In this document: positions 27,077-63,110 of the stretch, piece after piece
How positions within the stretch are numbered: position 1 is the first letter of the stretch
Layout: each line of letters starts with the position of its first letter
Source: Pseudomonadota bacterium
Lineage (GTDB): Bacteria > Pseudomonadota > Gammaproteobacteria > Burkholderiales > Burkholderiaceae_C
Direction: 5' to 3'
Assembly (NCBI GenBank): GCA_040384825.1
Contig: JAZKIO010000060.1
Coordinates: forward strand, 3,559 to 67,558
DNA length: 64,000 nucleotides
The notes under the pieces: generated by a model
Told to the model about the DNA's origin: nothing
The model's database searches: none
Seen by the model: the letters and a program-made list of their open reading frames with translations, nothing else
Program-made: the position numbers and the translations under genes

Positions 27077-27152
27077 GGCCTGGTAGCTCAGTTGGTAGAG
27101 CAGCGGATTGAAAATCCGCGTGTCGGTGGTTCGATTCCGCCCCAGGCCACCA
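27077..27152 (+). tRNA. tRNA-Phe(GAA)
   Basis: 76-nt cloverleaf GGCCTGGTAGCTCAGTTGGTAGAGCAGCGGATTGAAAATCCGCGTGTCGGTGGTTCGATTCCGCCCCAGGCCACCA; anticodon GAA, encoded CCA. Confidence 0.98.
27108..27152 (+). repeat. attL core (45 bp, tRNA 3' half)
   Basis: TTGAAAATCCGCGTGTCGGTGGTTCGATTCCGCCCCAGGCCACCA, identical to 63066-63110. Confidence 0.95.
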
Positions 27153-32114: not shown

Positions 32115-32357
32115 ATGAAAGCAGAACGAACCATCTCCATGAGCCTCCGGGTGACGCCGAAATTTCGGCGTTTGCTCGAGACCGCAGCTGAGCGTGAAAA
32201 CCGCAGCCTGACGAACATGCTCGAAACGTTGCTTCTGGAGTTCTGCGCCACACACGGCATCGAAGAGTCGAAACAGCCGTCTGCTATGGAGAGCTCGGCG
32301 CTTGCGGGGGAGCACGGCAGCGCAGTCTCCCGGCCAAAGGCTAAGCGACGGTCCTAA
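32115..32357 (+). CDS. Small ribbon-helix-helix (Arc/CopG-like) DNA-binding protein
   Basis: TISMSLRVTPKFRRLLETAAERENRSLTNMLETLL is a beta-alpha-alpha RHH pattern. Confidence 0.8.
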   Translation: MKAERTISMSLRVTPKFRRLLETAAERENRSLTNMLETLLLEFCATHGIEESKQPSAMESSALAGEHGSAVSRPKAKRRS

Positions 32358-32388
32358 AAAGAACACCAAGACGAAGCCGACCTCCAAT

Positions 32389-34131: not shown

Positions 34132-34173
34132 CGGCGCGCTATACGAGACAAGTTCGCAAACAATAACAAGAAC

Positions 34174-39900: not shown

Positions 39901-41156
39901 TTCTGACAAACGGACACCGCCATACCGTTGCGATGGCGTCTGTACTCGGGCACTACCATCTCGTAATCACCGGGCTCTACGAGCGACTGCGAAGCGGTGA
40001 CGCGAACGCTCAAGCCCTGGCCCGCGCAGAGCTCATTCGATGGGTGTCGGCAGGTCCGCTCTCTGGGCAACATGTTCGGGTCATCGAAACGTCAGACGCG
40101 GCGACGCTTTTGACGCTGGTCGACCTTCACCGCATTGCCTTGACCTATGTCACAAACAAGAAGGGCGGCGACCAGGTCATCGACACAGAAAAAGTGCAGT
40201 TCGAAAAGCTTCACGGGGCCAACGGCTACACGTCGGCGGTCCTGACTTCAGAGCTTCTGTCGGGCGCAGTATCGGCAGCCGGCATCCAGGACATCGTCCG
40301 CAGGGCGGAGAAGAGGGTCGCTGTCAATGCAGAGTTCCCAGACCCGAACGAGACCCTTCGCTCTGTCATCGCCACGTCTGCGATTTCCCACGGAGTAGAC
40401 GTCGAAGAGTTCAACGCGATGTTCTTCGCTGGTATGCCATCGGACATCGCTGAGTACATCCAAGCGTCTTCACGCGTGGGACGAACTCACGTCGGGTTCT
40501 CATTGCTCGTTCCGGTTCCTCAGAGGCCTCGCGACAGGTTCGTCTTGGAAGTGTTCGACATCTTCCACCGGTTCCTTGAACGGATGATTCTTCCAGCAGC
40601 GGTGGACCGATGGGCCGAGAAGGCACAGGTTCGAGTCATGCCAAGCTTCTTCCAGGAGTACGTATGCGGTGTCCACGCCATCCAGCTGCTTTGCGCTGCG
40701 GAGCCCGACAAGAAGCGTGCGTCGCCGAACTACGCGTACGCCACAGACGTGCGCGACTTCCTGGCGAACACGAAAGCCTTCACCGAAACGGAGCGCTTTA
40801 TGGTCGAGGCGCTTGGCCTTACTTCGCTGCCACCGCCTGAAGGACAGGCGTACTACAGAGCCCGACTGAAGAACGAAATCGGCAACTACCAGAGCGACCT
40901 CGGTGTTCCGATGCACGTGAACGGTACGCGACTGAACAAGTTCTTCGAGAGCCGGGCGAAGAATCTCCGACCAATGACATCCCTGCGCGACGTCGATGAG
41001 CCGGGGGTCATCTTCGAGTCGAAGCACGATGCCTCGTACAAGGAGGCGCCGGCCGATGCCACCGCAAGAGCGATGCTGTTTATTCGGCGCGGCTCTGGCG
41101 CAGATATCGACGATACCGAACCGAGAATCGAGGCTAAGGAGGGCGACTCGAAATGA
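36927..41156 (+). CDS. drmA: DISARM DrmA-like SF2 helicase
   Basis: Q motif WRLFQLAF, Walker A FATGGGKSEAF, YPLRLLTLQQ, GTVDK, QDEAH, ASATV, ATSAISHGVD, YIQASSRVGR. Confidence 0.88.
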   Translation: MTVLSKSPKAIHDACKEAVVDSLLNNLSARLAGREEFYKIIYKGKPSSVLMSEFILPMPPDERAGDEEANPIQISAHGLDFQILRSGASERMKVSVRGAVYVRILPTEDEVKPGGPLYPTFPLTREAARELRSRIKDALAALRTELGITKTVRLHPDWPAKSEEARRKAHESLGIPFDNKLDRSPVDDSGGDDAPPAPLEEDDGSGMPSEAPPEREAPAGATLPDALAQAIDAPPKWLRLDLDLPPFEFSPSTCAEDSANASRALNEAIALQLDRWATSEEEPYGGKLWGFRHAAPIRPSSIRDWKAYLASVRTSKLQVVVPVIELRWDIEALPDPRDPELMTVHVALENWSAPPTSLNHKEVEPSLFQLQVSLSLNVDVHRPLHLDRVKPSYRYNEYLRYPALGFNGGVTAHDEGSTRILRTTWTPRYVLPRIVPTDCGAVRNIKALSDPASLAGLAPLVTAYSAWLDEVKDRPVGAGIEGPDAAEQLGREQEKLQLDLNGWREELAAIRCGLAILEKSKAHWSGPGEQKSPLGIPFEAWLSMNAAMAGVAATKGYDDWRLFQLAFILASIPTFATRIPEFHDFYDPVVSKHANAVTLLYFATGGGKSEAFLGLLLFVLFIDRLRGKQHGVSALMRYPLRLLTLQQARRTFAVMGAGEAVRHARQHRGEPFSLGFWVGGANTPNWHKEEGYSDIPTEQAVPPSQEPSFQKTQPYKTYKERWQKLEVCPFCNTRGGLALRRASGAGGNALGHYCTSAKEKCSWNARHDDIKPLPFYVVDEDIYDLAPSVLLGTVDKLSALGQSQGTIRKFFGMFGFAPFIEKSTERLFIPSVAKDWDGEPGGTTHGLFPTFADGRKRFFDPFPSLLIQDEAHLLDESLGTFAGLFESALEASFNRLGSLLPGQLSYEPGSQVRRKIKVIAASATVSEPQRQMRNLYQRGSTVQFPYPGPSLYTSFYAAPSGPDDRPEDADRKALVTDDIELRSHWARVYASVLTNGHRHTVAMASVLGHYHLVITGLYERLRSGDANAQALARAELIRWVSAGPLSGQHVRVIETSDAATLLTLVDLHRIALTYVTNKKGGDQVIDTEKVQFEKLHGANGYTSAVLTSELLSGAVSAAGIQDIVRRAEKRVAVNAEFPDPNETLRSVIATSAISHGVDVEEFNAMFFAGMPSDIAEYIQASSRVGRTHVGFSLLVPVPQRPRDRFVLEVFDIFHRFLERMILPAAVDRWAEKAQVRVMPSFFQEYVCGVHAIQLLCAAEPDKKRASPNYAYATDVRDFLANTKAFTETERFMVEALGLTSLPPPEGQAYYRARLKNEIGNYQSDLGVPMHVNGTRLNKFFESRAKNLRPMTSLRDVDEPGVIFESKHDASYKEAPADATARAMLFIRRGSGADIDDTEPRIEAKEGDSK

Positions 41157-43354
41157 GCAAAGCAAAAACGATGAGCCGCTCGCGAAATCAAATCGCGAAC
41201 TCCTACGCTCCCGAGAGCTTTTTCACGTTTGAAGGAGGCAGCGGCGCGTGCATTGCCCACTCCGTACCGACGGAGTCCATCGAATTGGTGGATGCGACGA
41301 AGGAGCAGATTTTTGAGCGCATCAATGAGTTGGGTCGGGCATGGTTCGACGCCGCCATGGGCTGTCGAGATGCGGACGCTACTCAACCTCGTGTCTCCGC
41401 TCCTCAATGCGTGGACCCAAAGATGCTGGACAACACGAGGTCTGACTTCCAGGCTCCTGGTATAGAGCGTGTCCACCTGTGCCGTCCCTCCAGTATGGGC
41501 TACACGCCTGCGCCTCTTTCGTTCGTATGCCGGGCCTGTGGCTTGTTTCGCGATTTCACCACGTTGCGAGAGCTTGATGCGGCGATTTCGGCACTGAGCA
41601 CTACCAAGTGCCGAAAGCACGATGGTCCTTGTGATTGGGAACAGCTGGATGTCATCTTTGTTCATTGGTCCGGCAATTGGACCCAGCCGTTTCCCGGACA
41701 GTACCAGTGGAGCGACGTCGACGCCAAGGTCGTGAAGCGCAGGGACAAGTGCATCTGTGGTCATGAGGACTTCCGGCTCAATCGCCGGGCCGCTGGCATC
41801 GGCGACTGGTTCTTTGAATGTGCCAAGTGCGACAAGCCTCTCTCGCCGAAGTGGCGCCAAAACGATGAAGCCAGCCTACGCTTCATCGGGCCCGCTTTCA
41901 CGGAAGCCAGGCGGACTGAGGTGAGCATGCAGGCGGCGCCTTATCGCGCGTCCAGCGTCTACTACGTCAAGTCTGACCTCTTCATCGACTTCAAGGACGG
42001 CGGCCGCGACCTGCTGACGCGCCTGCGTCCGGGGCGCGAAGACGCGCTTAAGGATTTCGTGGCCAAGCAGTATGGCTTCGGCATATCCGAAGTGACCGAC
42101 GAGGAGGTGGAAGCAGCGTGCGCGGGCCGTCCTGACTGCGAGAAGGAATGGCTCGAGTTTCAGAGCAGCTCAGGTGCGATTAAGACCGGTGAAGCAATGG
42201 CCGCGACCGTGTCGGAGCCGATTCGAAGCGGCATTCTGACAATGTTGGCGACGGCGTACGAAGGTAAGAAGCGCATCATCGACGACCTGAGGCGTCGCGC
42301 CATTCTCCTTCCAAAGATTAGTCTTCCTGTGCCCTTGCTGGAGCGAATTCGACATCGACAGGTTTTATTTGCGTCCAAATTCGACCCCTTCCGGCTGGCA
42401 GTCGAGCACGCAACGTTGGACGCTACGAGACTTGCGGTGGAGAGTCGTGTGAACGGAAAGAAGCCGTATGTATCTTTCACTCGCCTCGATGAAGACCTCG
42501 CTCCCGAGACGGAAGTCGAGCGAGATGCTCTCCAGGCGGAGACTCAAGTAGCACTGACGAGGCTGGGCCTGGCGGATATGGGGCTCATTCGTGAATTCGA
42601 CCTCTGTCGGTTCTCGTTTGGCTATTCGCGCATGGAAGGGGGCCCCGTGCTGCACGACAAGCGTGGCATGAACATGCCGGTTCGCCTGAACATGTTCCCG
42701 CCGGTGATGCACAACTCGTCGTCTAAGAACCCAATCTATGTGGTCCAGCAAGGCAACGAGGCAATCTACGTCAAGCTCAAGCCTGAGCTAGTGCGGGCCT
42801 GGCTCTCCGACTTGGGCTGCCCGGACATGTTCAGCCTCAGTGGGGACGAAAAAATTGGCGCGGGAATTCTGGCTTGCTCTCAGCAGATGTCACCGTTCCT
42901 CGACAAGTTGCCCGAAAGCGATACCCCGCCGACCTACTTCTACCTGTATACGCTCCTGCATAGCTATTCACATCTCTTGATGAAGCACATGTCGGAATAC
43001 TCCGGCCTCGATATGGGGTCCTTGGGCGAGTACATTTTCCCGGCAGACTTGGCTTTCGTCGTCTATCGAAGCGGCACGACGATGGACCTGGGCAACCTCT
43101 CTGCCATGTGGCGGAACTCTGGGACGGCGATGCTGAACGCCATGCTCTCCCTGAAGGCGACGCAGTGCGGCACCGGTTCACTGTGCTCTCATCGCGGGGG
43201 TGCGTGCCCGGACTGCATCATGGTTCCGGAAACGTCTTGCGTCGCTAGCAACAAACTGCTGTCACGCTCGGTTCTTCGGGGCACTGGAAAGCGGCCGAAA
43301 TTCGATACCCGCCCCGAAGGCATCCGCGGCTTCTTCGAATACACGGGCGGGTGA
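41153..43354 (+). CDS. drmB: DISARM DrmB-like DUF1998 protein
   Basis: LLHSYSHLLMK, YIFP, GNLS and C-terminal C..C...GACPDC..VPETSC...N..LSR Zn motif; ATGA overlap with the helicase. Confidence 0.88.
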   Translation: MSKAKTMSRSRNQIANSYAPESFFTFEGGSGACIAHSVPTESIELVDATKEQIFERINELGRAWFDAAMGCRDADATQPRVSAPQCVDPKMLDNTRSDFQAPGIERVHLCRPSSMGYTPAPLSFVCRACGLFRDFTTLRELDAAISALSTTKCRKHDGPCDWEQLDVIFVHWSGNWTQPFPGQYQWSDVDAKVVKRRDKCICGHEDFRLNRRAAGIGDWFFECAKCDKPLSPKWRQNDEASLRFIGPAFTEARRTEVSMQAAPYRASSVYYVKSDLFIDFKDGGRDLLTRLRPGREDALKDFVAKQYGFGISEVTDEEVEAACAGRPDCEKEWLEFQSSSGAIKTGEAMAATVSEPIRSGILTMLATAYEGKKRIIDDLRRRAILLPKISLPVPLLERIRHRQVLFASKFDPFRLAVEHATLDATRLAVESRVNGKKPYVSFTRLDEDLAPETEVERDALQAETQVALTRLGLADMGLIREFDLCRFSFGYSRMEGGPVLHDKRGMNMPVRLNMFPPVMHNSSSKNPIYVVQQGNEAIYVKLKPELVRAWLSDLGCPDMFSLSGDEKIGAGILACSQQMSPFLDKLPESDTPPTYFYLYTLLHSYSHLLMKHMSEYSGLDMGSLGEYIFPADLAFVVYRSGTTMDLGNLSAMWRNSGTAMLNAMLSLKATQCGTGSLCSHRGGACPDCIMVPETSCVASNKLLSRSVLRGTGKRPKFDTRPEGIRGFFEYTGG

Positions 43355-44229
43355 TGTCGGCGCAGCTGAGTGCCTTCGAGAAGAACGTAGTGCGGCTGCT
43401 GGCTCCCCGAGCGGGCGTCGCTGCGAAAATTCTGGATGCCTGGGCTCGCGTTCCGACATCAACCGAACAGTCAGCGCGAATGCTCACAGGACTGGCTCAG
43501 TTGGGGCTGACTGAGGAGCGTGCGGCTCAGGAGGTGCTGGTATTAGCTTCTGCCGCCGGCCTTCTCGTTCAAGGAACTGGCGGCTTCAGTCCTGGTCCAA
43601 TTCCGGCCGGGACGTTCCAACGCCTAGCCCTCGCCCTCTTCGCGGTCGAGCACTACAAAGCTGCTGTTCACGAGGACGCCACCACGGCAAGGGTGGTGCT
43701 GACGAAGCCACCTCGACCTTGTGTCCTCGAAACCAAGCTTGCCGAGTTAGGCTGGCGAACGTTTGACCTTGAGCCGACCGAGCACGCGTTCAAGCGGATG
43801 GTGTACGAAGCCCAGTCTAGGGTCGTAGTGATGACGCCGTTTTTCGACGTGACCGGTGCACTTTGGCTAAAGGAGCTCTTCGAGGGCGTGTCTGAGCAAG
43901 TGACAAAAGTCTTGGTATTGCGGAGCCTCGAAGAGCCAACGCGGCAGGACTATCCGAAGGGCTTTGATGCGATTGCGTCGTGGCTGTCGGCGGAGAAGGT
44001 CGAGGTTTACAACTACTCGATTCCCCGTGCCCCGGGACCCGGCCGGGAGACCTTCCATGCCAAAGTTGTGCTCTGTGACAGTGATGTTGCCTACGTCGGG
44101 TCGTCCAACGTGAATGCAGCATCGTTGGAACACTCGATGGAGATGGGCGTCGCGATGCGCGGACGGGCCGCTCGAGACGTGGCCACAATTGTCTCGGCTG
44201 TACTCGTGTCCGCCAGCCGCATGTTCTGA
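43351..44229 (+). CDS. drmC: DISARM DrmC-like phospholipase D family nuclease
   Basis: Single HKD motif FHAKVVLCD...YVGSSN...SMEMG; overlaps the drmB stop. Confidence 0.88.
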   Translation: MMSAQLSAFEKNVVRLLAPRAGVAAKILDAWARVPTSTEQSARMLTGLAQLGLTEERAAQEVLVLASAAGLLVQGTGGFSPGPIPAGTFQRLALALFAVEHYKAAVHEDATTARVVLTKPPRPCVLETKLAELGWRTFDLEPTEHAFKRMVYEAQSRVVVMTPFFDVTGALWLKELFEGVSEQVTKVLVLRSLEEPTRQDYPKGFDAIASWLSAEKVEVYNYSIPRAPGPGRETFHAKVVLCDSDVAYVGSSNVNAASLEHSMEMGVAMRGRAARDVATIVSAVLVSASRMF

Positions 44230-44504
44230 AGCGAGCGCCTTTCATCCGGCTTCAGGTGCGTGGAGGCGCCAACGGTCAGCGCCCTTAGCTCGCGCATTCG
44301 TTGGCAGGCATCGCGCAGCATCTGGCAGGCCAGGCACGTTCCAACAGGCCGAACCGCCCTTCCTAGCGCTTCCCCCGGAAGGGAGGATAAAAAAGCTCGC
44401 TAGACGCTGGGCGAAGCGTTTTCGCCCGACATCCCTTGATATTGAGAACCTATATTGACTACCTGCATAGCGGCCACCCTTCAATCAAAAGGGTGGCAAC
44501 AAAA

Positions 44505-46493
44505 ATGCAGGAAAAGTCAATGAATTCAGTAAGTTATGAAATTCGCAGGTCTTTCAACCCGTCGCCTATACCTGCTTCGCAGGCGACAAAAATAGGAGGT
44601 CGGGCACGGAGAAGACACGTGGCTCAGCCGCTTACCTATCAAGACCTGCTCAACGGACAAGACAAACGGGTGCTCATGGGCACCGTCCACCCCCAGACCG
44701 CTGCGAATCGCGCTACAGCGCTACGCGTGTTCATGGGCTTTCTTAAACTTTCTGCTGAAGACCCGGTGGGGCAGGAATTTCGCGCCATGTTTCTGGCGCG
44801 CTGTCATGAACTCAGTGACCACCTCCGTACAGCCGGAAAAACGCCGCGGAACGTTGGCAACACGCTGTCGGCCTTGAAGTCGTGGCGACCAGTGGTCGTT
44901 GCCATCGACACCGACCATGCCATATCTGGCGACAAGCTCACACCCTTCGCTCAGGCCTTCCGTGCGTTGCTGAATGGAACGCCAGTGAAGCTGTTGGCAC
45001 GAACTATCGACGCGGCTCCCGGCATGCTCTACGGCTGGCAGGCGGGAAAGAATCCGCGACTGAGTAATTCCAAGTACCTGACCCGGGTGGAGCGCTACTT
45101 TGGGCTGCCCGATGGTGAGCTATCGACATTGGCGGGCTTTCGTCACGGTTCGTACGAACCGAAATCTGTTGGCGAGCCGCTCAAGATTGCGTACCGAGAC
45201 GGCCTCAAGGCAAAGAGCCACTACGTCTTCAAGCCCGCATTGGACTCTCCACTGCGAAAGCAGTGGCACGAACTGCTGGTCTACAAGACGGCTCGGGTGC
45301 CGACTCTCATTCGCAGCAACAAAGGCGTTTGGCGCCTATCCCCGCACGACATCGAGACCGAAAGGGAAGGGAACTGGTACCGGTTCCTGAATGGCTCTGA
45401 AGTGCCCACTGCCCATCCAAGGTGGAATCAGCTTGCGTCCTTCCTCGGATGGCTCGCGATGCCTGTACCGGCAGGAGGCATGGGTGTTCCTGAATCGGAA
45501 CTTCACACTTTGGCCTGGTTGACTCACTCAGCGTACGCTGAGAAGTATGTCGACTGGCTAATCGCGCGTGCCGGGAACCTCGTGAACGGCTCGGTAATCG
45601 AGTTTCTTGCGTTCATCAAGTCCATGACGCGTCCAGTCACCGGGTACTTGTGGCAGTTGCCCTCGTTTGCGAAAACGCTTCCGCTCGAGTTGCCTACCGA
45701 AAATTGGCAAGAGCACGCGGAGACGGCATGGCGTACGGCAAATGCGTCGGCTGTGGCGCTTCGGCCCTTGCTGGTACAAACTCGGGACCCCTCGGAACCA
45801 ATGAAGCACATCCTGGATACGGATAGCCCGCTGGAGTTCGTAGCGGACATGGTGCAGCGAATGCGGGCCGACCGTCCGTTGGGGCGCGCTCCATACACTG
45901 AGGCTAGGTGGGCGCGCAACGTCGCTCTTATCAAGTTCCTCGTCTCAAATCCTCTGCGCGTGCGCAACGTCTGCACGTTGACTTGGCGCGATGACAACTC
46001 TGGCCTTCTCTACCAGCGTCCGGACCGTTCGTGGTGGGTCCGCGTCCCAAAAGTGCACTTCAAGAACTTCAAGGGTGCAGCGTCAGACAACGAGTACGAC
46101 ATGCCGGTCCAGGAAACGGTTTGGCAAGACTTGGAGCGCTACTTGACGCTGCGGCCAAGATTGTTGAACGGTCCAAGTGACTACCTCTTCATTGGCGCCG
46201 GGCGCGGTCCTAGAGCTACTCTGTCGAAGCAGCCCTGGGAAGATTTGTCGCGCACGGTCGAGGACCTTACTCGAAAGTACTTGTGGCGCTGCCCTGGAAT
46301 CGGAACGCACGCGTTTCGTCACTTGGTCGCCACCGCCATCATCAAGGCGTCCAAGAATTCGGACTACAAGACCGCGGCCTTGGTGCTCAACGACCGCCTG
46401 TCCACAGTCGAGCGAAACTATGCGCACTTGAAATCGTCAGATGGGGCCAAGCGCATGGATGAACTGCTTGGGGACGTTCTGCGTCGCATGTAG
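44505..46493 (+). CDS. Large second tyrosine recombinase with internal XRE-like HTH (start uncertain, 44436-44520)
   Basis: NPLRVRN (R), FKNFK (K), THAFRH (HxxR), LNDRLSTVERNY (Y). Central VKLLARTIDAAPGMLYGWQAGKNP..SKYLTRVERYFGL HTH. Confidence 0.8.
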   Translation: MQEKSMNSVSYEIRRSFNPSPIPASQATKIGGRARRRHVAQPLTYQDLLNGQDKRVLMGTVHPQTAANRATALRVFMGFLKLSAEDPVGQEFRAMFLARCHELSDHLRTAGKTPRNVGNTLSALKSWRPVVVAIDTDHAISGDKLTPFAQAFRALLNGTPVKLLARTIDAAPGMLYGWQAGKNPRLSNSKYLTRVERYFGLPDGELSTLAGFRHGSYEPKSVGEPLKIAYRDGLKAKSHYVFKPALDSPLRKQWHELLVYKTARVPTLIRSNKGVWRLSPHDIETEREGNWYRFLNGSEVPTAHPRWNQLASFLGWLAMPVPAGGMGVPESELHTLAWLTHSAYAEKYVDWLIARAGNLVNGSVIEFLAFIKSMTRPVTGYLWQLPSFAKTLPLELPTENWQEHAETAWRTANASAVALRPLLVQTRDPSEPMKHILDTDSPLEFVADMVQRMRADRPLGRAPYTEARWARNVALIKFLVSNPLRVRNVCTLTWRDDNSGLLYQRPDRSWWVRVPKVHFKNFKGAASDNEYDMPVQETVWQDLERYLTLRPRLLNGPSDYLFIGAGRGPRATLSKQPWEDLSRTVEDLTRKYLWRCPGIGTHAFRHLVATAIIKASKNSDYKTAALVLNDRLSTVERNYAHLKSSDGAKRMDELLGDVLRRM

Positions 46494-46841: not shown

Positions 46842-49757
46842 CTAGGGACCCGCAGAATCGGCGCCACCGTGGACCGCGAGCCGCCAGTGCCACAGCGGCT
46901 GTTGCGCGTTGCCGCCACGGTACTCCCGAACCTCGATTTCGACTGCTTCCAAGAATGCGAGCGCTTCGCTCCTGAGGCCAAACAACCTCAGTGAAGCCAG
47001 AATTCTCGAGATAAACAAATCGTGGTGCGACGGCGTCACGACCCACGTTGCAAAGCCGTTTTGCCAGCTCGGTGACCGGTGGACCTTGCCTGCGCGCCAC
47101 TCGAAACCATAGAACCCGAGCATGCGGAGGTAGGCCTCGTGCACTTTGCTACGAACGCGTTCATCACCCGCCAGAAATTCGAAGTCCGCCCGCGACGGCA
47201 TCGGCGCGTCGGGATTCATTTTGCTGACGGTGGTGAGCGGGAAAATCCAGGGAATCGTGCCGAGGTGACGTTCGATTTCCCAATCTTTCCATGTCATGGC
47301 CTGCTCGAACGAGAAGCCGAAGTTGTCAGTCCTCTGGCCGGTGAGGAAGCACAGTACGTCGAAGCAGTCGTCGGTGAGTTCGGCCTCCGCCGCCTCGCCC
47401 CTGGCGGCGGACTGCAGCGCTTGTCCGAGTTGCGCAAGCGCGCTCTCGAGTGGCGCGTCAATCACCACGTCGGCCGCTGACCTGCGAGTGCGCTCGCCGG
47501 TGCCCAACATGACAATTCGGCCCCCGCGGGAACGGGCCTTCTCCAACATGCCGGCGCCGGGGTAGGTGGTCACATCACTGTCAACCACCAGCACCACGTC
47601 GGCTCGCTTGAACTGCATCTCAACCCCGGCCGACTCGAGGTAGTTGTACTCGGCGCCCAGCAGTGCGATGTCGGGACGCATGGCCACGGCGGGGGCGTTG
47701 CAGGACAGGCAGTTGCTTGTTGAGTGAATCTGGAAGTTTCCGCAGACATCGCATCGGTCGAAATGAGCGTTTCCGTAGAGTTCCACGACGTTGTCCGCGC
47801 CTGCGCGCTGGAGGATTCCGTCCACCCGCTCGGTGACGACCGTGACTTGGGTGAGTTGACGTGAAAGTGCCACGAGCGCCGTGTGGAGTGGGCGGGGGTC
47901 GCTCTGGCCATGCGTGGCGCGCCACTCCGCCCAAAAACGGCGAAACGCCGTTGGATTTCCTCGGAAGCCGTGCACGTGTCCGAATGCCAATCGGTCCGTC
48001 GCGCTCCAGGCGCCCAGGTTGCCGGTCTCGATTGCGTTGACGCCCTCACCGGTGCCTGAGCCGACAAAGATAACTACCCGCTTGGCCGAATGAAGCCAAG
48101 ACGCGACTTTGCGGAGCACGGTGGGTTGGACGAGACCGTCTAGCGATTCGCGTCTGCGTGCGAGCTTTTGCTCATACATCGTCAGCTCGCTACGGGCGAT
48201 AAGCGCGTTCTTGTCGTCGCCGGGTTGTGCCGCCGTGACGCCTACCGATATGCTGACCTTCAAGCCCGGTGCGACGGTGGACCAATCCCGCTTGAGCACC
48301 GCCTCTTGTATGCGCACCGCGATTTGCAGCGCGGCGTCAAGGTCGATGTCCCTGAACAGGATGGCGAATTCATCGCCTCCCCACCGCGCCGGAAGGTCCG
48401 AGGGTCGGACGTGTGCCACCATTTCTTGCGCGATTCCGCGCAGCGCCTCGTTGCCGATTTCGTACGAGAAATTGTTGTTGATGTCACGGAACCGGTCGAC
48501 ATCAATCAACGCGACGCAAAGCGTCCTGTCAGTGTTCGCCGCGATGATGGACCACTCGTTCAGGCACTGGTTGAATCGTCTGAGATTCGGGATGCCTGTC
48601 AGTGTGTCTTCGTGCGCCCATTTCTCGAACTTGATGGACTTGGCGGCCAAGTCCTCGATGTGAAGCGCGCCTTGACGGGCGGAGATTAGTTGTTTCACCA
48701 GGTCTGCGCGCCCTTCCAAATGAAGAGCTTGCATCGTTCCTTCGCAGGCAAGTTGCCGGCGCAGCTCCATCACAGCCAAGTCTGCACGACCCTGGTGTTC
48801 GTAGATGGCGCATGCGATGCGGTGGCCCAAAGCAGTCAATGGAAGGTTCTCCACCTCCCTAGCCCAAGTGGTCATGCGACTGGCGTGCATCCCCGCGGCG
48901 ACAAAGTCACCGTCACGGTAGGCGAGTTCGGTTGCAACCCAAGATTGCGCGGCCAACAGCCATCCTGCGGTGCTCGGAGCGTTCAGGTCGGTGGCGGCCC
49001 GAACCGGAATCCGACGTGCAGCTTCCCCCCTCCCTTCCCACAACGACATGAGTGCCCACACGGTTCGGACGAAGTCGGGGAGACTCGAGACGGCGCCGGG
49101 TGTCAGCGACTCAGTGACGGAGGGAGGGTCGAGCGCAATCATGGACAGCATGCCCTCATGCGGGAGCTCGGTCGATGCGCCAACGTCTTCGCGTTCAATG
49201 GCCCAGCGCAAAATCTGCACCCACGCGCGTTCGGCATGGAGTTCGAGTTGCACCCCCGCGGTGCCAAGCCGAGCAGCGACCGCGAAGGCGGCGTCGAAGG
49301 CTGCCATCGAATGCACGAACGACTGCGCCCAACCGTGTGCAATGGCAAGGCTCAGGTGAGCTCGCACGGTCCAAGGTCCCTCGGGAAGGTCGCGGACCAA
49401 TTGTGTGGCCAGTAGCGCTGTTTCCACCGCTTCGACGCTGCGTCCCAGAACGCTCGCGGCCCGCGCCCACAAAGCCAGCGCCTCGACCTCATCCGTGTGC
49501 GCGGATGCCTCGCGAAAAAGCACTGCCGCACGGCGGGCCCCGCGCCGGGCTCGTTCAACCTTCGACAGCGCCAAGTCGCAGTACCCGAGCCGCAGCAAGG
49601 CTCCTGCCTCTACCGTGCCGTCGTTGACCTGACCTCTGACCACCGCTTCTGCCAAGCGTTGTGCAGTCTCTATCGCGCCAGACGCTAAGGCCGCATCAAT
49701 CTCGTCGAATGACCATGACGGCGTTGACGGCGGTACCCATTCGGTGCGTTGGTTCAT
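46842..49757 (-). CDS. Multidomain protein: TPR-like helical region, GGDEF, degenerate CobB-like sirtuin, OGFr-like domain
   Basis: HEDTLTGIPN..RPSDLPARWGGDEF; VVIFVGSG..VVTERVDGILQRAG..ELYG..CDVC..CLSC..RPDI; HLGTIPWIFP..SKMNPDAP..RMLGFYG..HHDLFISRILASLRLFG. Confidence 0.85.
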   Translation of the reverse strand: MNQRTEWVPPSTPSWSFDEIDAALASGAIETAQRLAEAVVRGQVNDGTVEAGALLRLGYCDLALSKVERARRGARRAAVLFREASAHTDEVEALALWARAASVLGRSVEAVETALLATQLVRDLPEGPWTVRAHLSLAIAHGWAQSFVHSMAAFDAAFAVAARLGTAGVQLELHAERAWVQILRWAIEREDVGASTELPHEGMLSMIALDPPSVTESLTPGAVSSLPDFVRTVWALMSLWEGRGEAARRIPVRAATDLNAPSTAGWLLAAQSWVATELAYRDGDFVAAGMHASRMTTWAREVENLPLTALGHRIACAIYEHQGRADLAVMELRRQLACEGTMQALHLEGRADLVKQLISARQGALHIEDLAAKSIKFEKWAHEDTLTGIPNLRRFNQCLNEWSIIAANTDRTLCVALIDVDRFRDINNNFSYEIGNEALRGIAQEMVAHVRPSDLPARWGGDEFAILFRDIDLDAALQIAVRIQEAVLKRDWSTVAPGLKVSISVGVTAAQPGDDKNALIARSELTMYEQKLARRRESLDGLVQPTVLRKVASWLHSAKRVVIFVGSGTGEGVNAIETGNLGAWSATDRLAFGHVHGFRGNPTAFRRFWAEWRATHGQSDPRPLHTALVALSRQLTQVTVVTERVDGILQRAGADNVVELYGNAHFDRCDVCGNFQIHSTSNCLSCNAPAVAMRPDIALLGAEYNYLESAGVEMQFKRADVVLVVDSDVTTYPGAGMLEKARSRGGRIVMLGTGERTRRSAADVVIDAPLESALAQLGQALQSAARGEAAEAELTDDCFDVLCFLTGQRTDNFGFSFEQAMTWKDWEIERHLGTIPWIFPLTTVSKMNPDAPMPSRADFEFLAGDERVRSKVHEAYLRMLGFYGFEWRAGKVHRSPSWQNGFATWVVTPSHHDLFISRILASLRLFGLRSEALAFLEAVEIEVREYRGGNAQQPLWHWRLAVHGGADSAGP

Positions 49758-50290
49758 CGCATGCCTCCACGCACGCATGCGGCCTTGGACCGGGCGAGAC
49801 AACGACGGGGGAAGGGAAGATGAACCGGGTTCAGACGTGTCACTGTGCGCTCCTGAGCGAGGGCAGTCGCAACACAAAACGGTTCCGCGTGACAACGATG
49901 TCACTTACACCGCCTCACGTGCAGTCCGCACGTGAGGTTGGTGGCAGCCCCGCTGCCATCCCTGTCGGGCTGGTCGGTGGCTTTGCGGCCCCGGCTTTCG
50001 CGCGGGTGTGCCCTGAATATGTCCAGTCTACAACTTGTTGCGCTGCAAGCGGGGCCAAATCGCTCAGCGTCATGCTCCGTATCAAGCAAAGGACAGTCAG
50101 CCGCGTGACGGCCCGACGTCAAGCTCGGACGACGCCTTTCGGAACGGGCAGTTGCAGTGCCGCTGCGACAGCACAGCAGGTCTGAAGGTCCAGACATGGG
50201 GGAGTGACGGGTGGGGCATGAGCGGTAAGAATCTGCCCGCAGTGGCCCCGCACGACAGAGCGCGCGAGTACAGCACAAGGAGACGGTTCA

Positions 50291-51139
50291 ATGGTGGCAG
50301 CGGGTCTGGAGCAACATGAGGTTCAACGGCAGCTGGGCCGCTGTCTCATGCGGCTGCAACAGTACGAGCAGCTGATGAAGCGCATCTTGGCTGTGCACGT
50401 CGTTGGCGGCACAGCGTCCGACGTCCAGTCGGCGTATGCGCAGCGGACCGCGGAGATTGCAAAGAGCAATCTCGGTGACCTGGCCCAGCGGTTGTTCAAA
50501 AACTTCATCGTTCCCGATGACGCAGTCGACGACGTCAACTCGACGCCCACACTCGTCTCGCCGACGGAAATCACCATCACGACGACGGTTCGAATCGAGA
50601 TGGAACGCGAGCGCTACGACATCACCAAGCAAGCGGTCAAGGACCTTGTCGACCTGCGAAATACCCTGGTTCATCATTTCCTGGAGCTGTTCGACGTCTG
50701 GACCGTTGAAGGATGCGCCAATGCGACCGAGTATTTGGCCCACACGTTCAAACGAGTCGACGAGCAATTTGCAGAACTCCTGCAATGGTCGGAGACCGTT
50801 GACCTGGCGAGATTGCAGATGGCCGAGCACTTGCAGACGCCCGGGTTCGCCGCCTTGCTCGTAGAAAGTCTTGGGCAATCGGAACCGGGTCGGCCAAATG
50901 AAGGGATGGTGTCTTCCTTGCGAGCTGCGACGGCAGAATGCGCTATCGACGGTTGGACCCCGCTTCGAGACGCGATTGCGTTTGTCGCGAGAGGCGAACC
51001 GGACCAGACGCCCGAGCGATACGGCTGCCGCTCGTGGCCGCAACTGCTACACGAGTCGAAAGTGTTCGAGTTGCGTTACACACGAGAACCCGATGCAGGA
51101 AAGGTCGCGTGGTACCGCGAGCGACCAAAAAGACGCTGA
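50291..51139 (+). CDS. HEPN-like domain plus OST-HTH/LOTUS domain protein
   Basis: AAGGAG RBS. RNTLVH matches Rx4H. C-terminal DGWTPL....PDQTPERYGCRSWPQLLHESKVFELR is the LOTUS signature. Confidence 0.75.
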   Translation: MVAAGLEQHEVQRQLGRCLMRLQQYEQLMKRILAVHVVGGTASDVQSAYAQRTAEIAKSNLGDLAQRLFKNFIVPDDAVDDVNSTPTLVSPTEITITTTVRIEMERERYDITKQAVKDLVDLRNTLVHHFLELFDVWTVEGCANATEYLAHTFKRVDEQFAELLQWSETVDLARLQMAEHLQTPGFAALLVESLGQSEPGRPNEGMVSSLRAATAECAIDGWTPLRDAIAFVARGEPDQTPERYGCRSWPQLLHESKVFELRYTREPDAGKVAWYRERPKRR

Positions 51140-51176
51140 ACTCGACGTTGCGACGCAGACCAGGGAGAAATTTTCA

Positions 51177-51890
51177 ATGAAAAGAATCTTTGTACCGACT
51201 CAGGGTGGCGGCGATTGGCAGCGTCTGCTCGCGAAGCCCGGACTGCATTGGAAGAAGGGTGCATCCGCAATGACGGCGGCTGCCGCTTGGGAGGCGGCGG
51301 CGGGCAATCTGCCTGCCGAGATTGCGGGGCTCTTGGCGTCGACGAACGAGCCGGGTCTGCTGAGCCTTCGTCTATTGGCCGCCATTCCCGAGTGGGAGGT
51401 CGCACTCGAGGGCGGTGAAACCGCGTCGAACACCGACGTTTTGGCTATTTGCCGGAATGACGAGGGCCTGTGCGTGGTAGCGGTCGAGGCGAAAGTGCTT
51501 GAGGATTTCGGGCCGCGACTTCAGGAGAAACGGCACAACGCGTCGTCCGGACAGGTTCGTCGTCTGGAGTTCTTGCACCGGTTGCTCGGTGTAGACCATT
51601 TCGAGGACAGCATTCGGTACCAGCTGCTCCATCGCACCGCATCGGCATTGCTGACCGCGCGGGAGTTTCATGCGCAAGTTGCCGTGATGCTGGTTCACGC
51701 GTTCGGAACTCCCGTTCAACGCAAGTCGGACTTCGTCGAGTTCTGTACCGCGATGGGGGCGACAGTCGTCGTGCCCGGTGTCTGGAAGGGGCCCGCGTCA
51801 GGACGTGCGCTGTATTTGGCGTGGTGCGACGGTCAGGCCAAGTTCTTGGAGGCGCAGTTGCCTTCGATGGCTGTGGGCGCGCCGGCGTAG
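51177..51890 (+). CDS. PD-(D/E)xK-like nuclease, DUF6946-like
   Basis: WQRLLAKP.LHWKKG.SA, PEWEV...SNTDVL...VEAKV, RYQLLHRTASA. Confidence 0.7.
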   Translation: MKRIFVPTQGGGDWQRLLAKPGLHWKKGASAMTAAAAWEAAAGNLPAEIAGLLASTNEPGLLSLRLLAAIPEWEVALEGGETASNTDVLAICRNDEGLCVVAVEAKVLEDFGPRLQEKRHNASSGQVRRLEFLHRLLGVDHFEDSIRYQLLHRTASALLTAREFHAQVAVMLVHAFGTPVQRKSDFVEFCTAMGATVVVPGVWKGPASGRALYLAWCDGQAKFLEAQLPSMAVGAPA

Positions 51891-51893
51891 TCG

Positions 51894-52346
51894 ATGGACC
51901 AGGCGCGCTTCCCGCAGCTCCTTCGCGCCATCTACGATGCTGTGGACGAACTCGAAGGCATGTTCCCCGGTCGTCATTTCACGCCGGACGGTCACTTGGT
52001 CGGCAGTCTCGGCGAAGCCCTCGCGTCCTTCCACTACGGTGTCGAGCTGTCCGCAGCTTCGGCTCGTTGTCACGACGGCGTTTGTGGCGCGCGCAATGTG
52101 CAGGTGAAAGCTACACAGGGTGACCGCATTGCTTTGTCGAGCGAACCTGAGCACCTGCTTGTCATTCGCCTCAAACGCGATGGCACGTTCACCGAGGAGT
52201 ACAACGGGCCGGGTGCGCTCGTATGGGGCCTCGTCAGTCCCAAGACTCGGCCCAAGAACGGACAGTATCAAGTGGCGCTGTCGACGCTGCGCCGGTTAAT
52301 GAACGCAGTGGGAGCTGCGCATCGGCTCCCGCGCTTGGAACGGTGA
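51894..52346 (+). CDS. PD-(D/E)xK-like nuclease, DUF6998-like
   Basis: FTPDGHLVGSLGE, HDG...VQVKATQ, YNGPG. Confidence 0.7.
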   Translation: MDQARFPQLLRAIYDAVDELEGMFPGRHFTPDGHLVGSLGEALASFHYGVELSAASARCHDGVCGARNVQVKATQGDRIALSSEPEHLLVIRLKRDGTFTEEYNGPGALVWGLVSPKTRPKNGQYQVALSTLRRLMNAVGAAHRLPRLER

Positions 52347-63065: not shown

Positions 63066-63110
63066 TTGAAAATCCGCGTGTCGGTGGTTCGATTCCGCCC
63101 CAGGCCACCA
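63066..63110 (+). repeat. attR core (duplicated tRNA-Phe 3' half)
   Basis: Exact 45-bp copy of 27108-27152. Confidence 0.95.

What the first reader, a model, noticed from the sequence alone, without database searches (positions are those of the whole stretch)
46842..49757. Unusual TPR-like / GGDEF / pseudo-sirtuin / OGFr-like fusion protein
The GGDEF motif (48366-48380) and RxxD I-site are intact, but the substrate-binding segment is altered (RDINNNFSYEIGN versus KxxNDxxGHxxGD). Next is a CobB-like sirtuin with its Zn ribbon (CDVC..CLSC) but eroded catalysis: GSGTG for GAGxS, TERVD for TQNID, and ELYG for the catalytic-His ELHG. Last is an OGFr-like domain whose HDYIQWLFP signature reads HLGTIPWIFP. 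Two degenerate domains on a c-di-GMP module, at least one NAD-related, suggest repurposed sensors linking NAD+, ADP-ribose or acyl-lysine status to c-di-GMP. Beside defence genes this could report phage-induced NAD+ depletion (inference). I know of no described protein with this architecture.
Basis: partly seen in the sequence, partly recalled or inferred. Interest (0 to 1): 0.85.

Follow-up and report, generated by a model that had tools for sequence, protein, structure and literature searches.

The report
Riboswitch-controlled cyclase with two pseudo-enzyme domains
A mobile genomic island carries a signalling enzyme (a cyclic-dinucleotide cyclase) fused to a catalytically dead sirtuin-like domain and a degenerate "opioid growth factor receptor"-type domain. 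A c-di-GMP-sensing RNA switch sits in front of the gene. The whole arrangement recurs in relatives and does not appear to have been described before.

Summary
The minus-strand gene at 46842-49757 encodes a 971-aa protein with a helical-repeat N-terminus, a long stalk helix, a GGDEF domain, a SIR2-like domain and an OGFr_N-like domain. All three Pfam calls pass their curated cut-offs. About 40 full-length relatives exist, so this is not an assembly artefact.

New facts:
1. A complete c-di-GMP-I (GEMM-I) riboswitch lies in the gene's 5' leader. It recurs upstream of five homologs and one shorter paralog, and these are the only two such riboswitches in the genome.
2. The gene is cargo of a 36-kb island in tRNA-Phe with perfect 45-nt att repeats. 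The island also carries a DISARM system.
3. The altered GGDEF segment falls on the two known base-reading positions (Leu for Arg, Asn for Asp), unlike the 23 other GGDEF domains scored in this genome.
4. A rare protein with an intact sirtuin and an intact OGFr_N exists, so both halves degenerated together in this family. Both remain under purifying selection.

NAD sensing is unsupported, because most NAD-contact motifs are replaced. A defence role rests only on neighbouring genes. Most likely this is a riboswitch-gated cyclase with a repurposed, non-catalytic C-terminal module. It is a new variant of a known kind.

The parts
49940..50022 (-). c-di-GMP-I (GEMM-I) riboswitch aptamer in the 5' leader of the gene, with canonical ligand-contact nucleotides (G20 context CAGGGC, A47 in CGCAAAGCC, C92 in CUGCC)
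   Evidence: Rfam RF01051: 54.3 bits against a gathering score of 35, E 7.7e-8, full model 1-87. Alignment and structure line. Homologous aptamers lie upstream of five homologs and one paralog. There are only 2 in the whole genome. The helices fit all 7 copies, with 89.7% of cells paired against 24-48% when slid.
49758..49939 (-). Leader between aptamer and start codon (expression platform). It has a 10-bp hairpin CCUCACGUGC/GCACGUGAGG directly after the aptamer, with flanking CCAC/GGUG pairing that competes for the aptamer's 3' end. The Shine-Dalgarno GGAGG (49764-49768) sits inside a GCAUGC...GCAUGC hairpin.
   Evidence: Sequence; MFE folds; no canonical intrinsic terminator on this strand. 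ON or OFF logic is not determined.
46842..49757 (-). Coding sequence of the 971-aa fusion protein (stop codon included)
   Evidence: (P0002, 100% identity, 971 aa).
48795..49706 (-). N-terminal helical-hairpin (TPR-like) solenoid, residues 18-321; presumed sensor or interaction domain
   Evidence: AF2 secondary structure and pLDDT. Two paralogs in the same genome share this domain plus GGDEF only. No Pfam TPR hit.
48612..48785 (-). Long stalk helix (residues 325-382) leading into the GGDEF domain
   Evidence: AF2 helix H325-382. Foldseek match to the stalk-bearing cyclase SiaD, 7e6g. Best NCBIfam hit is SiaD.
48153..48617 (-). GGDEF domain (residues 381-535). GGDEF motif 48366-48380; I-site RxxD 48396-48407; metal and sugar contacts D419, N427. 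Non-canonical base-reading positions: Leu392 (48582-48584) and Asn436 (48450-48452).
   Evidence: Pfam E 8e-30. Family conservation. Genome baseline: 23 of 24 GGDEF domains have Arg/Asp and only this one has Leu/Asn. Roles of the positions from PMC6456294.
47403..48125 (-). Class-III-sirtuin-derived pseudo-sirtuin (residues 545-785): GSGTG 48048-48062, TERVD 47820-47834, ELYGN 47769-47783 (Tyr661 replaces the catalytic His), Zn-ribbon Cys669/672/683/686 47700-47753, DSD 47574-47582 (replaces GTS)
   Evidence: Pfam and NCBIfam. Residue alignment to Sir2Af2/Af1 and to the canonical P0132. Foldseek target TM-score 0.72-0.79 to sirtuins.
46869..47375 (-). OGFr_N-like domain (residues 795-963) lacking the family's HD..Q signature (HLGTIPWIFP), and with HHDLFISR in place of NHNxLRITR
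   Evidence: Pfam E 5.5e-11. Profile search finds 3190 relatives. Alignment with stand-alone homologs. Domain model pLDDT 95. No PDB fold match. Matches a Marseillevirus 'opioid growth factor receptor' model at TM 0.75.
27077..27152 (+). tRNA-Phe gene, integration site of the island; its 3' 45 nt (27108-27152) form attL
   Evidence: ARAGORN, Rfam, repeat.
63066..63110 (+). attR: a perfect 45-nt direct repeat of the tRNA-Phe 3' end. The island is 27108-63110 (about 36 kb, ~60% GC against ~72% outside).
   Evidence: the repeat finder; composition profile; integrase at 27564-28931.

Best explanation
The gene encodes a cytoplasmic cyclic-dinucleotide cyclase of the stalk-helix GGDEF type. It is carried as cargo on a 36-kb island integrated in tRNA-Phe.

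Shown here:
- The catalytic core (metal-binding Asp, sugar-face Asn, GGDEF with the general-base Glu) and the RxxD inhibitory site are invariant across the family.
- A canonical c-di-GMP-I riboswitch sits in the leader and recurs in relatives.
- The two C-terminal domains are a sirtuin fold without the catalytic His or most NAD-contact motifs, and an OGFr_N fold without its HD..Q signature. Both are under purifying selection.

Inferred mechanism:
- Cellular c-di-GMP binds the leader aptamer and sets how much enzyme is made (direction unknown).
- The TPR-like solenoid and stalk control productive dimerisation of the GGDEF domains.
- Product binding at the I-site caps output.
- The pseudo-sirtuin/OGFr_N tandem descends from a once-active sirtuin-OGFr_N module. 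It now acts as a non-catalytic ligand- or protein-binding regulatory or scaffolding module, using the retained Zn-ribbon cleft and a re-lined pocket (conserved Glu643, Arg644, Asp646, Tyr661, Asn663, Asp726, Asp728, Arg613).
- In the window's clade the base-reading pocket is remodelled (Leu392, Asn428, Tyr432, Asn436), so the product may not be purely c-di-GMP.
For: Domains and motifs. Family of about 40 clusters with the same architecture. Riboswitch: Rfam 54.3 bits against GA 35; same-strand aptamers 76-212 nt upstream of homologs in L003, L004, L005, L007 and of paralog L010, plus L001 with my own model (39.8 bits, E 1e-10); only two GEMM-I in the 4.9-Mb genome, both in front of this cyclase lineage; G20/A47/C92 canonical. 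Stalk-type cyclase: AF2 helix 325-382, SiaD as best NCBIfam and Foldseek cyclase hit. Pseudo-sirtuin: with P0030 retaining His. Intact ancestor-like module P0132. Purifying selection on both degenerate domains. Pocket remodelling is clade-fixed (11-member clade, support 100/99, plus one independent origin) and unique among 24 GGDEF domains in the genome. Island.
Against: No biochemical data exist for any member. The direction of riboswitch control is unknown, and no canonical terminator was found. Two family loci (L006, L024) lack a detectable aptamer. Covariation support for the aptamer within this set is weak, with only 2 compensatory pairs. Inter-domain geometry is uncertain (pTM 0.51), so a regulatory contact between the C-terminal module and GGDEF is inferred, not seen. 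Conserved charged residues in the former NAD pocket could equally mean a new catalytic activity rather than binding.
Confidence: 0.6

Rival explanations
1. Altered product. In the window's clade the GGDEF domain makes a dinucleotide other than, or in addition to, c-di-GMP (for example 3',3'-cGAMP or c-di-AMP), because both known base-reading positions are non-canonical. The c-di-GMP riboswitch would then make the protein a signal converter. This rival concerns the product only and is compatible with the main explanation.
For: The Watson-Crick-face residue is Asn436 instead of Asp, and the cross-dimer residue is Leu392 instead of the Arg conserved in 94% of cyclases. In Hypr GGDEFs, Ser/Thr at the first position and Tyr/Ser/Ala/Gln at the second give cGAMP (PMC6456294). 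The central motif residue is Asp (GGDEF), as that paper's 'Goldilocks' model requires for non-Asp variants. Co-varying changes line the same helix (K->R, D->N, H->Y, D->N). The state is fixed in an 11-member clade and arose twice. It is unique in the genome.
Against: Asn has not been tested at this position in anything I could find, and it could simply bind guanine as Asp does. Twenty of 32 family members keep Asp. The window's riboswitch has G20, the c-di-GMP type, not A20. The one A20 aptamer (L004) belongs to a protein with Asp, so there is no correlation.
Confidence: 0.2
2. Neo-functionalised enzyme. The sirtuin-like and/or OGFr_N domain is still catalytic but with new chemistry, using the newly conserved acidic and basic residues (E643, R644, D646, Y661, N663, DxD 726-728). 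The protein would then be bifunctional.
For: Near-invariant polar residues sit exactly where NAD-contact motifs used to be. A DxD at the end of a Rossmann beta-strand resembles metal-nucleotide sites (my own knowledge; a resemblance only). The Zn-ribbon and fold are intact. The domains are as conserved as enzymes usually are.
Against: The cofactor-binding loop is variable within the family. The OGFr_N signature HD..Q, the best candidate for an active site in that family, is lost and variable. No precedent was found.
Confidence: 0.13
3. Anti-phage defence or conflict sensor. The module senses NAD+ depletion, ADP-ribose or another infection signal and converts it into a cyclic-dinucleotide alarm.
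For: The gene lies in a mobile island between a DISARM system (PADLOC DrmA 1e-88, DrmB, DrmC) and OST-HTH/DUF6946/DUF6998 genes. Homologs sit next to a TIR-WD40 protein (L001), CYTH + Metallophos + SLOG + methylase (L003), a STAND NTPase with an Mrr nuclease domain (L007), or on a plasmid-like contig (L005). Defence SIR2 proteins are a known theme.
Against: No PADLOC hit. No conserved partner or effector. Other homologs are among housekeeping genes. Defence SIR2 NADases need the Asn and His that are missing here (family knowledge). NAD-contact motifs are largely gone. No phage protein has the OGFr_N fold in BFVD. A c-di-GMP riboswitch points to lifestyle signalling rather than infection sensing.
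Confidence: 0.1
4. Decaying relic or assembly artefact. The C-terminal domains are non-functional remnants, or the fusion is a mis-assembly.
For: Signature catalytic residues are missing in both domains.
Against: The same uninterrupted architecture appears on many independent contigs and in about 40 clusters down to 35% identity. The domains are better conserved than the N-terminal sensor and far better than the linker. New residues are near-invariant.
Confidence: 0.02

Closest known systems
Stalk-helix GGDEF diguanylate cyclases with an I-site (SiaD, PleD, WspR type)
   Same: GGDEF fold and motif, metal-binding Asp, sugar-face Asn, RxxD five residues before GGDEF, and a long N-terminal helix. 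SiaD is the best NCBIfam hit (E 7e-34, below its equivalog cut-off) and the best cyclase fold hit, 7e6g.
   Different: The sensor is an uncharacterised TPR-like solenoid. The cross-dimer Arg is Leu and the guanine-specifying Asp is Asn. A 430-residue pseudo-sirtuin/OGFr_N module follows the GGDEF domain, where other proteins have EAL or HD-GYP domains or nothing.
Hypr GGDEF enzymes (GacA of Geobacter, Bd0367 of Bdellovibrio)
   Same: Non-Asp residue at the Watson-Crick-face position, non-Arg at the cross-dimer position, GGDEF (not GGEEF) motif, intact I-site. They are also linked to GEMM-I-class riboswitches in their organisms (PMC6456294).
   Different: The residue is Asn, not Ser/Thr, and Leu, not Tyr/Ser/Ala/Gln. 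The activity is untested. There is no receiver domain. The riboswitch here regulates the cyclase gene itself and is the G20 (c-di-GMP) type.
Class III/U sirtuins (CobB, Sir2Af1/Af2, SIRT5) and the engineered Sir2Tm H116Y mutant
   Same: Rossmann plus Zn-ribbon fold (target TM-score 0.72-0.79). The four Zn cysteines and the class-III Arg (R613) are retained. The natural His->Tyr change is the one used in PDB 2h4h, titled 'Sir2 H116Y mutant-p53 peptide-NAD'.
   Different: In addition to His->Tyr: GAGxS -> GxGxx, cofactor loop GIPxFR lost, TQN -> TER, GTS -> DxD, adenine-ribose Asn -> Gly. It should not be filed as an NAD-dependent deacylase.
Bacterial OGFr_N (PF04664) proteins, and the singleton sirtuin-OGFr_N protein P0132
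   Same: Same fold and scaffold residues (W.FP, S, P, G, R, W). P0132 shows that sirtuin plus OGFr_N exists as an intact two-domain protein, and it is the nearest OGFr_N relative outside the family.
   Different: Most relatives among the 150 best hits are stand-alone proteins of about 175 aa with the signature LE..HDYIQWLFP ... NHN.LRITRIL. The fusion family has lost H, D and Q and changed the second motif. No function is known for any member, and no solved structure exists.
GEMM-I (c-di-GMP-I) riboswitches such as Vc2, and the cGAMP-sensing GEMM-Ib
   Same: Full-length match over Rfam's gathering score, GNRA-loop hairpin, G20/A47/C92 contacts, location in a 5' leader.
   Different: It controls a c-di-GMP metabolic gene, which the review PMC6366702 calls rare. 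It is tied to one cyclase lineage and travels with it on mobile DNA. One homolog (L004) has A20, the cGAMP/bispecific signature.
Defence-associated SIR2 proteins (ThsA, DSR1/2, SIR2-HerA, SPARSA)
   Same: A sirtuin-fold domain in a multi-domain protein located in a defence island.
   Different: Those are active NADases with the catalytic Asn and His. This domain derives from CobB-type deacylases, lacks both residues, and matches no PADLOC model.
Diguanylate cyclases carried by integrative elements (e.g. DgcK/DgcL of SXT/R391 ICEs; recalled from memory, not checked here)
   Same: A mobile element brings its own cyclase into the host's c-di-GMP network.
   Different: Different architecture. No riboswitch or pseudo-enzyme module is reported for those.

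Membership tests
GGDEF diguanylate cyclase (PF00990) | Domain model match over the curated cut-off | tested here: met
   104.1 bits against 23.8; TIGR00254 110 bits against 37.4.
GGDEF diguanylate cyclase (PF00990) | Catalytic core: GG[DE]EF with the general-base Glu, metal-binding Asp (PleD D327), sugar-face Asn (PleD N335) | tested here: met
   G460-G461-D462-E463-F464, D419 and N427 are invariant in 32/32.
GGDEF diguanylate cyclase (PF00990) | Guanine-specifying Asp (PleD D344) and cross-dimer Arg (PleD R300) | tested here: not met
   Asn436 and Leu392. 23 of 24 GGDEF domains in the same genome have Asp and Arg. So 'cyclase' is supported, but 'strictly diguanylate' is not established.
GGDEF diguanylate cyclase (PF00990) | RxxD inhibitory site five residues before the motif | tested here: met
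   R451-P-S-D454 is invariant, with the same spacing as PleD.
GGDEF diguanylate cyclase (PF00990) | Synthesis of c-di-GMP from GTP | not testable with these tools
   Needs an enzyme assay or LC-MS.
Sirtuin / NAD-dependent deacylase (PF02146, CobB) | Fold: Rossmann domain plus Cys4 Zn-ribbon | tested here: met
   Pfam 49.7 bits against 24. Foldseek target TM-score 0.72-0.79. C669, C672, C683 and C686 are conserved.
Sirtuin / NAD-dependent deacylase (PF02146, CobB) | Catalytic His (Sir2Tm H116) | tested here: not met
   Tyr661 in about 90% of the family. Only P0030 keeps His.
Sirtuin / NAD-dependent deacylase (PF02146, CobB) | NAD-contact motifs GAGxS, GIPxFR, TQNID, GTS and the adenine-ribose Asn | tested here: not met
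   GSGTG; loop variable; TERVD; DSD; Gly. NCBIfam CobB models score 94-101 bits against cut-offs of 243-320.
OGFr_N (PF04664) | Domain model match over the curated cut-off, and the same fold | tested here: met
   42.8 bits against 22. Profile search returns OGFr_N proteins. Model matches a Marseillevirus OGFr model at TM 0.75, E 1.4e-7.
OGFr_N (PF04664) | Conserved polar signature HDYIQWLFP ... NHNxLRITR | tested here: not met
   HLGTIPWIFP and HHDLFISR. H, D and Q are lost and variable across the fusion family.
c-di-GMP-I riboswitch (RF01051) | Covariance-model score over the gathering score, full length, on the gene's strand in the 5' leader | tested here: met
   54.3 bits against 35, model 1-87 of 87, 182 nt before the ATG.
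c-di-GMP-I riboswitch (RF01051) | Ligand-contact nucleotides G20, A47, C92 | tested here: met
   Read from the Rfam structure line and the alignment. Rule taken from PMC6140456. My mapping of the Vc2 numbering is partly from memory.
c-di-GMP-I riboswitch (RF01051) | Binds c-di-GMP and changes expression | not testable with these tools
   Needs in-line probing or ITC, and reporter assays.
TPR repeat proteins | Match to TPR sequence models | tested here: not met
   No TPR family at E <= 1. PDB profile hits to Pins/LGN are at E 0.2-1. Only the predicted helical-hairpin architecture is TPR-like.
Known anti-phage defence systems (PADLOC-DB) | Match to any defence-protein model | tested here: not met
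   0 families at E <= 1. The neighbours do match DISARM.

The most novel reading that the evidence does not exclude
A mobile-island-borne signal converter. Host c-di-GMP opens a riboswitch that lets the cell make a GGDEF enzyme whose base-reading pocket has been rebuilt (Leu/Asn). The enzyme would synthesise a different cyclic dinucleotide. The pseudo-sirtuin/OGFr_N tandem would be a new kind of small-molecule or protein sensor, for example for an NAD-derived or infection-derived ligand, that gates this synthesis. Together this would form a previously unknown single-protein node linking lifestyle signalling, metabolic state and conflict with phages.
Probability: 0.1. Interest if true: 0.9.

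Novelty: new variant of a known kind. Interest (0 to 1): 0.66.

Why it matters
If the reading holds, it matters in four ways.

1. **First handle on the OGFr_N domain.** The domain has thousands of bacterial members, a giant-virus member and the animal opioid growth factor receptor. It has no solved structure and no known biochemistry. Its fusion to an intact sirtuin (P0132) and to a pseudo-sirtuin (this family) gives concrete proteins to assay.
2. **A natural pseudo-sirtuin.** It would be a natural example of a sirtuin fold turned into a pseudo-enzyme inside a second-messenger enzyme.
3. **A riboswitch controlling a cyclase.** This is a c-di-GMP riboswitch in front of a cyclase lineage, which a review calls rare. 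It offers a compact feedback or feed-forward circuit that travels on mobile DNA.
4. **A testable specificity variant.** Asn at the GGDEF specificity position, together with Leu at the cross-dimer position, is a clade-fixed natural variant. It could extend the known set of GGDEF enzymes that do not make c-di-GMP alone.

Tried and rejected
- **Assembly artefact or decaying relic:** rejected.
- **Known defence protein:** no PADLOC match.
- **Conserved operon partner:** none found. Seven homolog contexts all differ.
- **cobB next to stand-alone OGFr_N genes as an independent functional link:** not found. The window's genome has no other OGFr_N gene. The neighbours of ten order-level stand-alone copies are unrelated (MoaA, H+-PPase, hydrolase, VWA). 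No sirtuin ORF lies within 277 kb around 25 stand-alone loci.
- **More intact sirtuin-OGFr_N proteins:** a search with P0132 returned only plain CobB proteins. Among the top 150 OGFr_N relatives, only P0132 and the fusion family have a sirtuin half.
- **L039's 1024-aa frame:** only a C-terminal OGFr_N domain, probably a chance open frame in GC-rich DNA.
- **'c-di-GMP-I-GGC' variant reading of the aptamer:** rejected for the window, which scores below that family's cut-off and has A, not G, at the A47 position.
- **RNAalifold consensus of the six aptamers:** did not recover the GEMM-I fold. I used the Rfam-derived structure instead.
- **Terminator-based mechanism:** no canonical terminator found.
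- **Literature:** nothing on OGFr_N in prokaryotes or with sirtuins. Hallberg et al. 2016 was not in the searchable library.
- **Earlier scan notes by sequence:** none.

Full report
**1. The observation**

The stated interval holds one long ORF on the minus strand. The longest frame is 46842-49904 (1020 aa). The database copy (P0002, 971 aa, 100% identical) and all homologs start at the Met encoded at 49757. That ATG is preceded by GGAGG with a 6-nt spacer.

Pfam finds GGDEF (E 8e-30), SIR2 (E 5.5e-13) and OGFr_N (E 5.5e-11), all above their gathering scores. NCBIfam CobB-type models align over the whole sirtuin domain but far below their equivalog cut-offs. All quoted motifs are at the quoted places. 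PADLOC has no match.

**2. A real, conserved family**

A search of 5.8 billion proteins returned about 33 full-length relatives (roughly 890-1020 aa, 35-63% identity) with the same three Pfam domains. Nearly all come from metagenomes, and the only names given are 'diguanylate cyclase'. The exhaustive profile search added six more representatives.

Among 185,579 species genomes, only an Aquincola MAG and a Rubrivivax MAG carry a family copy. Among 201 genomes of the same order, only the window's genome does. The family is rare and, as far as named records go, restricted to the Rubrivivax/Aquincola group of Burkholderiales.

**3. Anatomy**

The AlphaFold2 model (mean pLDDT 84.4) shows these parts:
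- a solenoid of about 14 paired helices (residues 18-321);
- one very long helix (325-382);
- the GGDEF domain;
- a Rossmann plus Zn-ribbon domain;
- a mostly helical C-terminal domain.

'TPR-like' is a fair description of the first part, but no TPR sequence model matches. The window's genome has two shorter paralogs (621- and 636-aa ORFs) that match only the solenoid plus GGDEF at 33-34% identity. It also has a separate ordinary CobB. The fusion is therefore an existing sensor-cyclase with a C-terminal add-on.

**4. The GGDEF domain**

The catalytic core (D419, N427, G460-G-D-E-F464) and the RxxD I-site (R451, D454) are invariant in 32 of 32 members.

- **The Watson-Crick-face residue.** It is Asp in diguanylate cyclases and Ser/Thr in cGAMP-making Hypr enzymes. 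Here it is Asn436, in 12 of 32 members.
- **The cross-dimer Arg.** It is conserved in 94% of cyclases and is Tyr/Ser/Ala/Gln in cGAMP makers. Here it is Leu392, in 27 of 32 members.

My mapping uses the constant spacing to the invariant Asn and to the GGDEF motif. The PleD numbering is from memory.

In the window's own genome, 23 of 24 GGDEF domains found by a motif pattern have Arg and Asp, and only this protein has Leu and Asn. On a maximum-likelihood tree the Asn state defines a well-supported clade of 11 (100/99) and arose once more independently. It co-varies with K->R, D->N and H->Y on the same helix.

The domain is therefore very probably an active cyclase with product inhibition. Its nucleotide specificity in this clade is an open question.

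**5. The sirtuin-like domain**

Residue-level alignment to Sir2Af2/Af1 and to a canonical sirtuin gives these replacements:

| Canonical element | In the query |
|---|---|
| GAGxS | GSGTG |
| Cofactor loop GIPxFR | VNAIET, and variable across the family |
| TQNID | TERVD |
| ELHG | ELYG |
| GTS | DSD |
| Adenine-ribose Asn | Gly |

The four Zn cysteines and the class-III Arg (R613) are kept. Tyr661, Glu643, Arg644, Asp646, Asn663, Asp726 and Asp728 are invariant or nearly so. One member (P0030) still has His.

The fold matches sirtuins at a target TM-score of 0.72-0.79. One of the hits is the engineered 'Sir2 H116Y mutant-p53 peptide-NAD' complex.

I conclude that this is a pseudo-sirtuin derived from CobB/SIRT5-type enzymes. 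Deacylase or NADase activity and canonical NAD binding are unlikely. The re-lined pocket is under selection for something else.

**6. The OGFr_N-like domain**

A profile of the family's C-terminal domain finds 3190 cluster representatives (1327 at E <= 1e-10). Most of the 150 best hits listed are stand-alone proteins of about 175 aa. These share a strong polar signature, LE..HDYIQWLFP..S..N..AP ... NHN.LRITRIL. The fusion family keeps the scaffold (W, F, P, S, P, G, R, W) but has lost H, D and Q, and reads HHDLFISR in the second motif.

The isolated domain models at pLDDT 95. It has no sequence or fold relative in the PDB. It does match the predicted structure of a Marseillevirus protein annotated as opioid growth factor receptor (TM 0.75).

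Neighbours of stand-alone copies are unrelated housekeeping genes, and none is a sirtuin. The domain's biochemistry remains unknown.

**7. The sirtuin-OGFr_N link**

The closest OGFr_N relative outside the family is P0132 (436 aa). It is a fully canonical CobB (GAGLS, GIPTYR, TQNID, ELHGN, GTS, LNAEP) fused to an OGFr_N with the intact HHDFIQWLFPL signature. It is a single ORF on its contig, but apparently a singleton.

The simplest history, which is an inference, has two steps. First, a CobB and an OGFr_N protein fused. Then this module was appended to a solenoid-GGDEF cyclase and both halves lost their signatures together.

Within the family both domains are better conserved (45% and 54% mean pairwise identity) than the N-terminal sensor (39%), and far better than the linker (24%). 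That argues for a retained, non-ancestral function.

Other OGFr_N fusions carry an N-terminal domain with DEDDh-exonuclease-like motifs (P0137, P0143). I read those motifs by eye, and Pfam does not support them.

**8.

Rfam finds a complete c-di-GMP-I aptamer at 49940-50022 on the coding strand, 182 nt before the ATG (54.3 bits against a gathering score of 35). Supporting evidence:
- Aptamers of the same class lie 76-212 nt upstream of the homologs in L003, L004, L005 and L007, and upstream of the paralog on contig C19.
- A model built from these finds a more divergent one before the L001 homolog (E 1e-10).
- L006 and L024 have none, and L023 is cut off by the contig end.
- The whole 4.9-Mb genome has only two GEMM-I elements, both in front of this cyclase lineage.
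- The GEMM-I helices fit all seven copies (89.7% of cells paired against 24-48% when slid). Variation is too low for strong covariation, with only two compensatory pairs.

Using the Rfam structure line and the rule that G20 reads G-alpha while A20 gives cGAMP or bispecific binding (PMC6140456), the window's aptamer has G20, A47 and C92, the c-di-GMP type. The L004 aptamer has A20.

The leader has a strong hairpin that can extend into the aptamer's 3' end, and a hairpin around the Shine-Dalgarno sequence. It has no canonical terminator. I cannot say whether ligand binding turns expression on or off.

**9. Genomic setting**

GC content falls from about 72% to about 60% at 26-27 kb. A tRNA-Phe gene (27077-27152) is followed by a tyrosine integrase (27564-28931). 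The last 45 nt of the tRNA are repeated perfectly at 63066-63110. The gene is thus cargo of a 36-kb integrative island.

The island also carries:
- a DISARM system: an N6-methylase, a 917-aa unknown protein, DrmA, DrmB and DrmC;
- a second, 685-aa recombinase-like gene;
- OST-HTH, DUF6946 and DUF6998 genes;
- sensor kinases.

First-reader notes on the same genome describe the same features, and I verified the parts cited above.

Homolog contexts vary. They include a TIR-WD40 protein, CYTH/Metallophos/SLOG/methylase genes, a STAND-Mrr protein, a plasmid-like contig, or plain housekeeping genes. No partner is conserved.

The family is a stand-alone cargo gene that often, but not always, sits in variable, defence-rich DNA.

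**10. Interpretation**

Most likely (0.6), this is a c-di-GMP-riboswitch-gated, product-inhibited cyclic-dinucleotide cyclase. Its TPR-like solenoid and stalk control dimerisation. Its pseudo-sirtuin/OGFr_N tandem is a repurposed, non-catalytic binding or regulatory module.

The product may differ from c-di-GMP in the window's clade (0.2; compatible with the main reading). A new enzymatic activity of the module (0.13) and a defence-sensor role (0.1) are not excluded. Decay or artefact is effectively excluded.

NAD+ sensing as proposed is not supported by the residues that remain.

**11. Limits**

No predicted-error map or multimer model was available, so inter-domain contacts are unknown (pTM 0.51). 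All functional statements about the C-terminal module and the riboswitch's direction are inferences.

Noticed in passing
window 27077-63110: A 36-kb genomic island integrated in tRNA-Phe. It has perfect 45-nt att repeats (27108-27152 and 63066-63110), a tyrosine integrase at 27564-28931, and ~60% GC against ~72% outside.
   Followed up: yes
window 32302-44229: DISARM-type operon: an N6-adenine methylase (PADLOC MTase_II 7e-168), a 917-aa protein with no Pfam or PADLOC match (34174-36927), DrmA (1e-88), DrmB (2e-15) and a PLD-type DrmC (8e-11). The 917-aa gene takes the place of DrmD/DrmE.
   Followed up: partly
window 44436-46493: A second, unusually long (685 aa) tyrosine-recombinase-like gene in mid-island, right after DISARM and convergent with the fusion gene. 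Only the C-terminal 170 residues match Phage_integrase, exactly at the cut-off.
   Followed up: no
window 50291-52346: Three co-oriented genes transcribed divergently from the fusion gene: an OST-HTH/LOTUS-containing protein (Pfam E 3e-4, below the curated cut-off), DUF6946 (E 6e-65) and DUF6998 (E 5e-46). None matches PADLOC.
   Followed up: partly
G000 contig C19:101220-103101 (L010, L040) and C27:55887-57440 (L009): Two paralogs with the same solenoid plus GGDEF but no C-terminal module. Both read AGDEF and keep canonical Arg/Asp. The C19 copy has its own GEMM-I riboswitch (55.5 bits). The C27 copy has none.
   Followed up: partly
L011:1331-2641 (protein P0132): A singleton 436-aa protein with a fully canonical CobB sirtuin fused to an OGFr_N domain with the intact HHDFIQWLFPL signature. 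It lies between a PEP-mutase gene and hipBA, near a type I-C CRISPR-Cas locus. It is a good experimental entry point to OGFr_N function.
   Followed up: partly
proteins P0137 and P0143: OGFr_N fused to an N-terminal domain of about 170 aa with DEDDh 3'-5' exonuclease-like motifs (FxDTEFT ... HHALxDA). Pfam gives no hit for that part.
   Followed up: no
L004:9706-9789: The aptamer upstream of homolog P0015 has A at the G20 position (AGAGC), the signature of cGAMP-sensing or bispecific GEMM-Ib riboswitches. Its protein has the canonical Asp at the GGDEF specificity position. An EAL gene and a small GGDEF gene lie downstream.
   Followed up: partly
L005:1225-1311 and L007:6796-6880: These two aptamers score just over the gathering score of the 'c-di-GMP-I-GGC' variant model (59.6 and 59.8 against 59). 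They nevertheless carry A, not G, at the A47 position, so the variant call looks like a clan-competition effect.
   Followed up: partly
L001:13244-16012 and L003:9104-9598, 12990-13835: Neighbours of homologs include a 922-aa TIR_2-WD40 protein (convergent) in L001. In L003 they include a CYTH protein (upstream, opposite strand) and a Metallophos phosphoesterase that starts 17 nt after the homolog's stop, which may be co-transcribed.
   Followed up: no
OGFr_N family in general: OGFr_N is widespread but patchy in bacteria (3190 cluster representatives; 11 of 201 genomes of this order; 0 of 14 model genomes). It has no solved structure or fold relative in the PDB, and it has a giant-virus homolog.
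   Followed up: partly
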